A stretch of 64,000 nucleotides of DNA from Escherichia coli (GTDB lineage: Bacteria > Pseudomonadota > Gammaproteobacteria > Enterobacterales > Enterobacteriaceae). Made by a program: the position numbers. Where the stretch lies: assembly GCF_041886205.1 (NCBI RefSeq), contig NZ_CP169029.1. The stretch is one strand, 5' to 3'. This document shows positions 8,901 to 11,900 of the stretch, piece after piece. Each line of letters opens with the position of its first letter. The first letter of the stretch is position 1.

Positions 8901-11900
8901 AGCGCGGGCGATCGGTTTTGATATCCACTTTAATCGCTGCCCAAGAAACGACTTTGGGTGATCGATATCCGGTAACAAACACGTCAGGATTGCGGAAGGG
9001 ACAATATGCCACCAGTCACCCTGTGCCAGCACGGGCGTCAGCTCGGCATTTTTGGCAAATACCGCACAAGCAATAGAAAAGAGAAGGTGACCTTCCGCCG
9101 TCATGATAAAACTCACTAAACTGTCGATACGTACAGTATAGGATTTTTATACAGTGCAAGGAAGTGGTGACGGTGTAACTCTTTCTCTTAAATTGACGAT
9201 TAATCCGTCAGTTGAATGCAAATTCAGATAAAAAACCAGGGGCAGCGTGATCACTGCCCCTGGTCATTAACCGAGAAGGTCTTTTGCGGTGAGTTCTGTC
9301 AGTGATGAGAGTTTGACGTTTGCTAATACAAAACGTGGATCATTTTGCGCTTCTGGCGCAGGAACGACGATGGAACGCATGCGGGCTGCTTTAGAGGCGA
9401 TCATGCCATTTACTGAATCTTCCAGCGCTACGCAGGTCAGTGGGTCAACGCCCAGTTTTGCTGCGCAGTCGAGATATACTTGCGGATGCGGCTTGCTGTA
9501 AGGCAGTTTTTCAGCCGAGGCGAGGGCATCGAAACTGTCGCGTAAGTCAAACATGGTCAACACTTTTTCCAGCATATGTAGTGGTGACGCGGAGGCCAGT
9601 CCCACCAATAAACCTTGTTCTTTGCATAACGCAACGGCTTCGCGCACGCCTGGTAATAATGGACGTGTCTCTTCAACCAGTGAAATGGCACGGGCAATAA
9701 CCCGTTCTACTACTTCCTGACGGCTTGGCCCATTCCACGGTTGCCGGGCGTACCAAAGATCGACCACCATATCGATGCGTAAACCTAAGGTGTCCGGCAG
9801 CTCGTTACGACGGGAGATATCCACCCCCAGGCTTGCCATCACATCCAGTTCGGCTCGATCCCATAAAGGTTCTGAGTCGATAAGTAATCCATCCATATCA
9901 AAAATTGCAGCAAGAATCTGACGCGGGGTTGACATTACAACCTCTCCTTTAGAGCATTATGTGTAAGGTATTAAGCTGTGCTTATGATTAAGCGCCTATC
10001 ATATCGCCTTTAAAGAATGGGCGAAAACAGATATCTACAGGTAAACTAAGTGAAACGACGCGTCTTAATCAAGGAGAACTCATGACGTATCAACAAGCTG
10101 GACGCATTGCTGTTTTGAAAAGGATTTTGGGTTGGGTGATTTTTATACCTGCATTGATCTCTACATTGATTTCTTTGCTGAAATTTATGAATACCCGACA
10201 GGAAAACCAGGAAGGCATTAATGCGGTCATGCTCGACTTTACTCATGTCATGATCGATATGATGCAGGCGAATACGCCTTTTTTGAATCTGTTCTGGTAT
10301 AACTCCCCGACGCCCAATTTTAATGGTGGCGTGAACGTTATGTTCTGGGTGATTTTCATCCTGATTTTTGTCGGACTGGCGTTCCAGGATTCCGGTGCCC
10401 GGATGAGTCGCCAGGCGCGCTTCTTGCGGGAAGGTGTTGAAGATCAACTCATTCTGGAAAAAGCCAAAGGGGAAGAGGGGCTAACGCGTGAACAAATTGA
10501 GTCCCGTATTGTTGTTCCGCACCATACTATTTTCCTGCAGTTTTTCTCACTGTATATCCTGCCGGTTATTTGTATTGCTGCAGGTTATGTGTTCTTTTCT
10601 CTGCTTGGGTTTATTTAATCAAAAGGCCGCACAGAGCGGCCATTATCTTCAACCCATATCATGCTGCTAATAATCTATCCAGTGACTGCTGAGCAATAAC
10701 CAAATGCTGACCGCCAAATAACCTTGCACGATTTAACAGCGTGTAGAGTTGGTAAACCGGTTGACGTTCAAGGAAATCGGCAGGTAGCGGGGATACTGAC
10801 TGATAGCCGTCATAGATTTGTGGCGGCTGTTCAGTATGCAGCGGTAACATCGCCAGGTCGCACTCTCGGTCACCCCAGTAGCAGGCCGGGTCGAAAATGT
10901 ACGGGCCATCCGGACCCAGCGCACAGTTGCCGGACCATAAATCGCCGTGCAACAGAGAAGGCTGCGGTTGATGCGAGGCCAGACGCTGCTGAATATGCTC
11001 GACGATGGCGTCGATATTGCCGAAAGCGATCCCTTTCTCTGCTGCCAGTTCCAACTGCCAGCCAATCCGTTGTTCAGCAAAAAACGTTGACCAGCGACGT
11101 TGCCAGGTGTTGGGCTGTGGAGTTGTGGAGAGCGAGTTATCAAAATCGAGGCCAAATTGTGGTTGGTCACTCCATTGATGTAAACGCGCAATTTGCTGAC
11201 CAAGAATAAATGCGCTATGCGCTTCCAGCGGACGAGGTGGGAGATAATCCATCACCAGAAAACTGTAGTCACGGTCAGCGCCTACTGCCCAAACCTTAGG
11301 CACGGTGACGGTTTTACTACGCGACAGTAACTCCAGTTGGTCGGCTTCGGCGGTAAAACCGGGAAGCAGTTCCCTTTCATCACATTTGACGAAAAAGTCA
11401 TGTCCTGCATAGCGCAAATGCCATGCGGCATGGACTTCTCCGCCAGGCAGTTCATTACGCAGTTCGATTTCGCCTTCGCCTAACTGCTCGCTCAAAAGAC
11501 GACTGATTGCCTGCCACATGATGTCTCTCCCATGTTGTCTGCCAGATCATAAGGTTAGCGCAAGAATGCGGTGTAAAAACACGAGCTAACGCACACCACA
11601 GACTGATTATTGCCCAAAAACCATTTATTTTCTGTTGCTATTCCATTCCTCCCAGGTCGTGATGGTGATTTCAGGATCTTTGCCGGTTGCACTTTGGGTA
11701 AGCCCCGAAACCAGTTCTCTAATTTCTTCTTCACTTTGGGTACTGATAAGTCCAAAAGTGTTAGTCCCCAGCTCTTGGATATTTCCCTCATCATCCGTCA
11801 TGGTGAGCAAAAAACCGTCGCGAGTCAGGTAATTATTCAACTCGTTAATTTCAGTCAATGTATCCTCATGCAACATGACGGTTATGACATAACGGACAAG

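What the first reader, a model, noticed from the sequence alone, without database searches (positions are those of the whole stretch)
9117..9160. LexA box directly upstream of ydjM
CTGTcgatacgtACAG matches the SOS box consensus and is followed by a second CTGT-containing element, consistent with the tandem operators described for ydjM. The box sits very close to the annotated start codon.
Basis: partly seen in the sequence, partly recalled or inferred. Interest (0 to 1): 0.2.

Follow-up and report, generated by a model that had tools for sequence, protein, structure and literature searches.

The report
Known tandem LexA operator of ydjM
This is the already described double LexA (SOS repressor) binding site in front of the E. 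coli gene ydjM, identical to the K-12 sequence and conserved across enteric bacteria, so it is real but ordinary.

Summary
Observation confirmed and interpretation supported. The feature is already known.

The window is E. coli chromosome. ydjM lies on the minus strand (8514..9104). On the gene strand, 14 nt before the ATG, sits TACTGTACGTATCGACAGTT (box 1, 9138..9119). Abutting it 18 bp further upstream is CACTGTATAAAAATCCTATA (box 2, 9156..9137). Both are base-for-base identical to K-12 MG1655.

I built a LexA matrix from 18 published sites that do not include ydjM. The two boxes rank first and second in the whole 64-kb window (14.6 and 12.2 bits). Either score alone is not rare in shuffles (9% and 29%). 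Two such sites within 25 bp occurred in 0 of 1000 shuffles.

In 80 ydjM loci from more than 25 enterobacterial genera, box 1 is always present. Box 2's left half keeps the same 18-bp offset in 78.

Box 2 is only a good half-site: left half 11.8 bits, right half 0.6 bits. Its degenerate right half belongs to an invariant CCTATACTG, probably the -10 element.

Published data list ydjM as a LexA regulon member, with tandem sites and 8.6-fold lexA dependence.

Side notes: a rare SNP at 9159, and a conserved unexplained block upstream of box 2.

The parts
9119..9138 (-). LexA box 1 (proximal, full palindrome): TACTGTACGTATCGACAGTT. The core CTGT-N8-ACAG is at 9121..9136.
   Evidence: Best LexA matrix score in the window, 14.6 bits. 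Identical to K-12. Present in 81 of 81 loci, 11.0 to 21.3 bits, median 18.0. The half-sites are conserved while the central 8 nt vary.
9137..9156 (-). LexA box 2 (distal, weak): CACTGTATAAAAATCCTATA. The left half is near consensus and the right half is degenerate.
   Evidence: Second-best score in the window, 12.2 to 12.5 bits. Left half 11.8 bits; right half 0.6 bits, below all 36 training half-sites. At least 7.5 bits at the same 18-bp offset in 78 of 81 loci. Same 20-mer listed for b1728 at -52 in PMC4576408.
9135..9141 (-). Inferred -10 element CTATACT (TATACT preceded by C), straddling the junction of the two boxes.
   Evidence: CCTATACTG is invariant in 80 distinct upstream sequences in an unanchored MAFFT alignment. 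The TATA part is not explained by the LexA matrix. No transcription start data were found, so this is an inference. The consensus promoter scan found no site reaching 9 of 12.
9102..9104 (-). ydjM start codon ATG (CDS 8514..9104).
   Evidence: RefSeq annotation of the identical strain and of K-12. The ATG is invariant across loci, whereas the in-frame GTG at 9116 is not conserved. The product matches Pfam YdjM PF04307, E = 7e-36.
9163..9190 (-). Conserved block upstream of box 2 (gene strand AAAGAGTTACACCGTCACCACTTCC), function unknown. Possibly a weak -35 region (TTCCxx at 9163..9158) plus a site for another factor.
   Evidence: Nearly invariant across genera, while the sequence further upstream is only 30 to 60% conserved. 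Not explained by any LexA box.

Best explanation
This is the SOS operator of ydjM.

In undamaged cells a LexA dimer binds the full palindrome, box 1 (CTGT-N8-ACAG). Box 1 overlaps the 3' end of the probable -10 hexamer TATACT and the probable transcription start. A second dimer is held on the abutting box 2, which offers one near-consensus half-site and one degenerate half. Box 2 therefore probably depends on the neighbouring dimer for occupancy.

Together the two dimers cover about 38 bp, roughly -28 to +10 if TATACT is the -10, and exclude RNA polymerase. After DNA damage, RecA filaments trigger LexA self-cleavage, the operator empties and ydjM is transcribed.

Shown here: the sequences, their matrix scores, their identity to K-12 and their conservation.
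Taken from the literature: LexA dependence of expression and the report of tandem sites.
Inferred: the promoter position, cooperativity, and occupancy of box 2.
For: - The operator and leader are identical to K-12.
- The boxes are the top two matrix scores in 64 kb, and no adjacent pair occurred in 1000 shuffles.
- Box 1 is present in 81 of 81 loci from more than 25 genera. Box 2 reaches at least 7.5 bits at a fixed 18-bp offset in 78 of 81 (19 bp in L063), even where the distance to the ATG shifts from 13 to 23 nt.
- In box 1 the half-sites are conserved and the centre is variable, as expected for a dimeric palindrome binder.
- Literature: PMC6590174, PMC8072944, PMC4576408, PMC11228462, PMC4951493.
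- The 8.6-fold lexA dependence of ydjM exceeds that of genes with a similar heterology index (dinG 1.7, rmuC 1.9, ftsK 1.7). This fits a second site strengthening repression.
Against: - Each box alone is a moderate match: scores that high occur by chance in 9% and 29% of shuffled windows.
- Box 2's right half scores 0.6 bits, below every training half-site, and two genera have lost box 2 altogether (L014, L026). Box 2 may therefore contribute little.
- No transcription start data were found, and the consensus scan finds no sigma-70 promoter, so the occlusion geometry is unproven.
- A published RpoD SELEX study predicts a different promoter further upstream, CTGAAA-17-ATTAAT.
- The centre-to-centre spacing of 18 bp is not an integral number of helical turns.
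Confidence: 0.93

Rival explanations
1. Only box 1 is a LexA operator. Box 2 is conserved because it is promoter sequence (TATAAA or the spacer, plus the -10 CTATACT), and its resemblance to a LexA half-site is incidental.
For: Box 2's right half is 0.6 bits in the window and has a median of -1.7 bits across genera. The invariant CCTATACTG looks like a -10 element. TATAAA inside box 2 is itself -10-like. Two genera lack the CTGT of box 2 yet keep box 1.
Against: The conserved part of box 2 includes ACTGT, which no promoter element in that register explains. The TG is one position off for an extended -10. The offset to box 1 is fixed at 18 bp in 78 of 81 loci. PMC4951493 states that tandem sites were experimentally reported. 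Colicin operators use the same arrangement of a strong and a weak site overlapping at their ends.
Confidence: 0.12
2. The LexA boxes lie downstream of the real start site and act as a roadblock rather than by excluding polymerase. Transcription would start from the upstream CTGAAA-17-ATTAAT promoter predicted from RpoD SELEX.
For: An RpoD holoenzyme SELEX peak lies in the yniC-ydjM spacer, with that predicted hexamer pair (PMC3946193). No strong -35 lies next to the boxes.
Against: That upstream stretch is poorly conserved, and in most genera it is occupied by the end of a different gene. The window itself has CTGAAT instead of CTGAAA. The SELEX hexamers are a computational best guess within a broad peak. 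The invariant TATACT at the box junction is better placed.
Confidence: 0.1
3. Chance match with no regulatory role.
For: The bare pattern CTGT-N8-ACAG is expected 0.64 times per window. Single-site scores are not rare in shuffles.
Against: No adjacent pair in 1000 shuffles. The site sits 14 nt before a start codon. It is conserved in 81 of 81 loci while the flanking intergenic bases diverge. LexA-dependent expression has been published.
Confidence: 0.01

Closest known systems
E. coli K-12 ydjM (b1728) LexA operator (Fernandez De Henestrosa et al. 2000, as cited in PMC4951493 and PMC6590174)
   Same: Same gene and same neighbours (hxpB upstream, tcyP downstream). The sequence is identical from the ATG through both boxes. 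The position of box 2 at -52 matches PMC4576408.
   Different: One SNP 3 nt upstream of box 2 (window 9159: T on the gene strand, G in K-12) and three SNPs further upstream, in and just downstream of the hxpB terminator.
Salmonella enterica ydjM (STM14_1605) tandem SOS boxes
   Same: Two boxes at 14 and 32 bp from the ATG (PMC8072944). These are the same distances as here, 14 and 32 nt.
   Different: The Salmonella box 1 has a more A/T-rich centre and scores higher: 19.4 bits in the two S. enterica subspecies loci L032 and L048 (diarizonae, arizonae).
Colicin gene double SOS boxes (strong plus weak site overlapping at their ends)
   Same: [quoted passage not shown]
   Different: These are plasmid toxin genes. 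The exact overlap and spacing differ (from my own knowledge, not tested here).
The lexA gene's own tandem operators
   Same: Two LexA boxes in one promoter (PMC4951493).
   Different: In lexA both boxes are full palindromes and do not overlap; their spacing is about two helical turns (my own knowledge). In ydjM the second box is a half-site-like element 18 bp away.

Membership tests
Gammaproteobacterial LexA (SOS) box | Palindromic core CTGT-N8-ACAG within the 20-mer TACTG(TA)5CAGTA | tested here: met
   Box 1 is CTGTACGTATCGACAG, an exact match to the core. Box 2 has CTGT on the left but CCTA on the right, so it meets the feature in one half only.
Gammaproteobacterial LexA (SOS) box | Matrix score or heterology index within the range of proven sites | tested here: met
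   Box 1: 14.6 bits and HI 11.0 on an 18-site matrix; the training range is 13.1 to 28.4 bits, with HI up to 12.2. Box 2: 12.2 to 12.5 bits and HI 12.1, just at the weak edge. The published HI for ydjM is 9.0.
Gammaproteobacterial LexA (SOS) box | Located in the promoter or leader region of a gene, on the correct side | tested here: met
   Intergenic, 14 nt upstream of the ydjM ATG on the gene's side.
Gammaproteobacterial LexA (SOS) box | Conserved in front of orthologues | tested here: met
   Box 1 in 81 of 81 loci. Box 2 at least 7.5 bits in 78 of 81.
Gammaproteobacterial LexA (SOS) box | LexA binds it, and expression depends on LexA cleavage | not testable with these tools
   Literature only: 8.6-fold lexA3 dependence (PMC11228462); tandem sites experimentally reported (PMC4951493).
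Tandem or cooperative LexA operator | Two LexA sites close enough for dimer-dimer contact, both occupied | tested here: inconclusive
   Adjacency and conserved spacing are shown. Occupancy of box 2 and cooperativity cannot be tested here.

The most novel reading that the evidence does not exclude
The ydjM operator may really be a three-half-site operator built around the -10 element. Box 2 would be a single conserved LexA half-site whose 'other half' is the promoter's invariant CTATACT. It would be occupied only through contact with the box 1 dimer, at a spacing (18 bp) that is not in helical phase. The nearly invariant block just upstream (GTGACA-N4-GTTACA-like repeats in most genera, 9163..9190 here) would be a binding site for a second, unidentified regulator. 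ydjM would then integrate SOS with another signal.
Probability: 0.15. Interest if true: 0.3.

Novelty: already known. Interest (0 to 1): 0.08.

Why it matters
It matters little beyond annotation. It confirms that this strain carries an intact SOS operator in front of ydjM, a LexA-regulated inner-membrane protein of the YdjM family whose function is still unclear.

The cross-genus comparison adds a small refinement. The second 'box' is conserved only as a half-site fused to a probable -10 element. A further conserved block upstream is unexplained. Both could guide a footprinting or mutagenesis experiment on how weak LexA sites are reinforced.

Tried and rejected
- Transcription start data for ydjM. 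The Thomason 2015 paper is not held. The Cappable-seq GTF is cut before 1.8 Mb. The supplements of Kim 2012, Mendoza-Vargas 2009 and the Salmonella SOS paper give no ydjM start site.
- The consensus sigma-70 scan found no promoter in 8900..9400.
- Rfam found nothing in 8900..9400, so there is no known RNA element.
- The in-frame GTG at 9116 was considered as an alternative start, which would put box 1 only 2 nt away. I rejected it because it is not conserved across genera while the ATG is invariant, and RefSeq uses the ATG.
- The TTGCAC created by the SNP was considered as a new -35. I rejected it because its spacing to TATACT is only 13 nt.
- CRP-like and sigma-54-like readings of the upstream block were considered by eye. 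I rejected them for wrong spacing or missing GG.
- A search for RpoS dependence of ydjM gave no specific support.

Full report
**What the window is.** A 1-kb stretch around the finding matches 5,423 of 5,426 complete E. coli genomes at 95% identity or more. It is 100% identical to strain 6EVA. In that record and in K-12 MG1655 the genes are tcyP (ydjN), ydjM, hxpB (yniC), yniB and yniA. In window coordinates ydjM is 8514..9104 on the minus strand, with its ATG at 9104..9102. hxpB is 9267..9935 (-). Its intrinsic terminator is at 9265..9234. The ydjM product matches Pfam YdjM (PF04307, E = 7e-36).

**The observation.** CTGTCGATACGTACAG is at 9121..9136 and is the only CTGT-N8-ACAG in the window. 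That bare pattern is expected 0.64 times per window, so it is not significant on its own.

Read on the gene strand, the region is:

...CACTTCCTTG-CACTGTATAAAAATCCTA[TA]CTGTACGTATCGACAGTT-TAGTGAGTTTTATC-ATG

- Box 1, TACTGTACGTATCGACAGTT, is 9138..9119.
- Box 2, CACTGTATAAAAATCCTATA, is 9156..9137.
- They share two bases, and their centres are 18 bp apart.
- Box 1 ends 14 nt before the ATG.

The only corrections are that everything is on the minus strand and that the second element lies on the far side of box 1 from the gene.

**Matrix test.** I built a symmetrised LexA matrix from the 18 sites in Table 4 of PMC3009722. ydjM is not in that table.

| Element | Score (bits) | HI | Rank in 64 kb |
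|---|---|---|---|
| Box 1 | 14.6 | 11.0 | 1 |
| Box 2 | 12.2 to 12.5 | 12.1 | 2 |
| Next best position | 10.0 | | 3 |
| Training sites | 13.1 to 28.4 | up to 12.2 | |

In 1000 dinucleotide-preserving shuffles of the window:

- a site of at least 14.5 bits appears in 91;
- a site of at least 12.2 bits appears in 288;
- two sites of at least 12.2 bits within 25 bp appear in none.

The pair is therefore significant, not either box alone.

**Comparison with K-12.** From the ATG through both boxes the window is identical to MG1655. The nearest difference is at 9159, 3 nt upstream of box 2, where the gene strand has T and K-12 has G.

**Conservation.** A scan of one genome per species returned 80 ydjM loci, with protein identity 85 to 99%. 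They cover Escherichia, Citrobacter, Salmonella, Enterobacter, Lelliottia, Leclercia, Kosakonia, Raoultella, Atlantibacter, Franconibacter, Phytobacter, Trabulsiella, Cedecea and others.

- Box 1 is present in all 81 sequences (the 80 loci plus the window), at 11.0 to 21.3 bits with a median of 18.0.
- Box 2 scores at least 7.5 bits exactly 18 bp upstream of box 1 in 78 of 81.
- L063 has box 2 at 19 bp. L014 (Citrobacter amalonaticus) and L026 (Intestinirhabdus alba) have lost its CTGT.
- The 18-bp offset holds even where the distance from box 1 to the ATG varies between 13 and 23 nt.
- In box 1, CTG[T/G] and ACAG are fixed while the central 8 nt vary. This is the pattern expected for a dimeric palindrome binder.
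- Intergenic sequence between box 1 and the ribosome-binding site, and further upstream, is much less conserved.

**What box 2 really is.** Its left half scores 11.8 bits. Its right half scores 0.6 bits, lower than any of the 36 training half-sites, whose minimum is 2.2. Across genera the left half has a median of 14.1 bits and the right half -1.7.

The degenerate right half is part of CCTATACTG, which is invariant in an unanchored alignment of 80 distinct upstream sequences. TATACT (9140..9135) is a 5-of-6 match to the -10 hexamer, and with the preceding C it resembles the sigma-S-favoured form. That resemblance comes from my own knowledge and is not tested here.

If TATACT is the -10, transcription starts near 9128. 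Box 1 would then span about -10 to +10 and box 2 about -28 to -9. I could find no start-site data. The consensus scan finds no strong promoter. This geometry is therefore inferred. A published RpoD SELEX study predicts a different hexamer pair further upstream (PMC3946193), but that stretch is not conserved outside E. coli.

**Literature.**

- ydjM is listed among LexA-regulated genes (PMC6590174).
- Tandem LexA sites are described as experimentally reported for E. coli ydjM. Colicin genes are described as using a strong plus a weak site overlapping at their ends, with cooperative binding (PMC4951493).
- Box 2's exact 20-mer is listed for b1728 at -52 (PMC4576408).
- Salmonella ydjM has two boxes at 14 and 32 bp from the ATG, with HI 9.12 and 12.85 (PMC8072944).
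- In E. coli RNA-seq, ydjM is induced 2.5-fold by AZT and is 8.6-fold dependent on cleavable LexA, with HI 9.0. Genes of similar HI show 1.7- to 1.9-fold dependence (PMC11228462). This is consistent with, though not proof of, reinforcement by the second site.

**Mechanism.** This is classical SOS repression. LexA dimers on box 1 and, probably cooperatively, on box 2 cover the core promoter. RecA-stimulated LexA self-cleavage relieves the block. The sequence, scores and conservation are shown here. LexA dependence comes from the literature. Promoter placement, cooperativity and occupancy of box 2 are inferred.

**Verdict.** The feature is already known and is identical to the reference strain. 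Interest is low.

**Seen in passing.**

- The allele at 9159 is rare. Over 9100..9190 the window's sequence is 100% identical in only 2 of 5,422 genomes that match, against 3,583 for the K-12 sequence.
- One strain carries a 7-bp deletion inside box 2.
- A nearly invariant block upstream of box 2 has no explanation.

Noticed in passing
window 9159: SNP 3 nt upstream of box 2: A on the + strand (T on the gene strand, giving TTGCAC), where K-12 has G on the gene strand (GTGCAC). Over 9100..9190 the window's sequence is 100% identical in only 2 of 5,422 E. coli genomes, against 3,583 for the K-12 sequence. It falls in the inferred -35 region. Its effect is unknown.
   Followed up: partly
window 9163..9190 (minus strand); L003-L082 about 60 to 35 nt upstream of box 1: A block AAAGAGTTACACCGTCACC.CTTCC is nearly invariant across more than 25 genera. 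In most genera it is preceded by GTGACA, giving GTGACA-N4-GTTACA, a 10-bp direct-repeat look. The first repeat is degenerate in this window and in K-12 (AGAGAA). No LexA box explains it. It may be a weak -35/UP-like region or a site for another regulator.
   Followed up: partly
L083 (E. coli NIPH17_0036), corresponding to window about 9140..9146: A natural 7-bp deletion (AAATCCT on the gene strand) removes the right half of box 2 and part of the inferred -10. It occurs in 1 of 5,422 genomes.
   Followed up: partly
L008-L082, upstream of the ydjM operator: In most genera other than Escherichia, the sequence upstream of the ydjM operator ends ...GTGGATGGCGGCTGGCTGGCGCGCTAA, which looks like the C-terminus of a short-chain dehydrogenase (VDGGWLAR*). 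An extra gene may therefore lie immediately upstream of ydjM there. PMC3415461 lists Klebsiella KPN_01239 (ydjM) and KPN_01241 (hxpB), with a locus-tag gap between them.
   Followed up: no
window 9234..9265 and 9215, 9222: The hxpB intrinsic terminator (14-bp stem, then a T-run) differs from K-12 in its loop (A instead of T). Just downstream of it, on the gene strand, the T-run reads T at 9222 where K-12 has C, and CTGAAT replaces CTGAAA at 9215.
   Followed up: no
window 33528..33547, 48254..48273, 1689..1708, 60898..60917, 10548..10567: These are the next-best LexA matrix hits (10.0, 9.8, 9.8, 9.1 and 7.9 bits). All are below the weakest proven site, and their number is consistent with chance. 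They were not examined further.
   Followed up: no
window about 6182..6986 (+): The gene next to tcyP (ydjO in K-12) is annotated as a frameshifted pseudogene in the identical strain 6EVA.
   Followed up: no
window 9114..9116 (minus strand): An in-frame GTG lies 12 nt upstream of the ATG and would add MSFI to YdjM, placing the start 2 nt from box 1. It is not conserved across genera, so the annotated ATG is preferred.
   Followed up: yes
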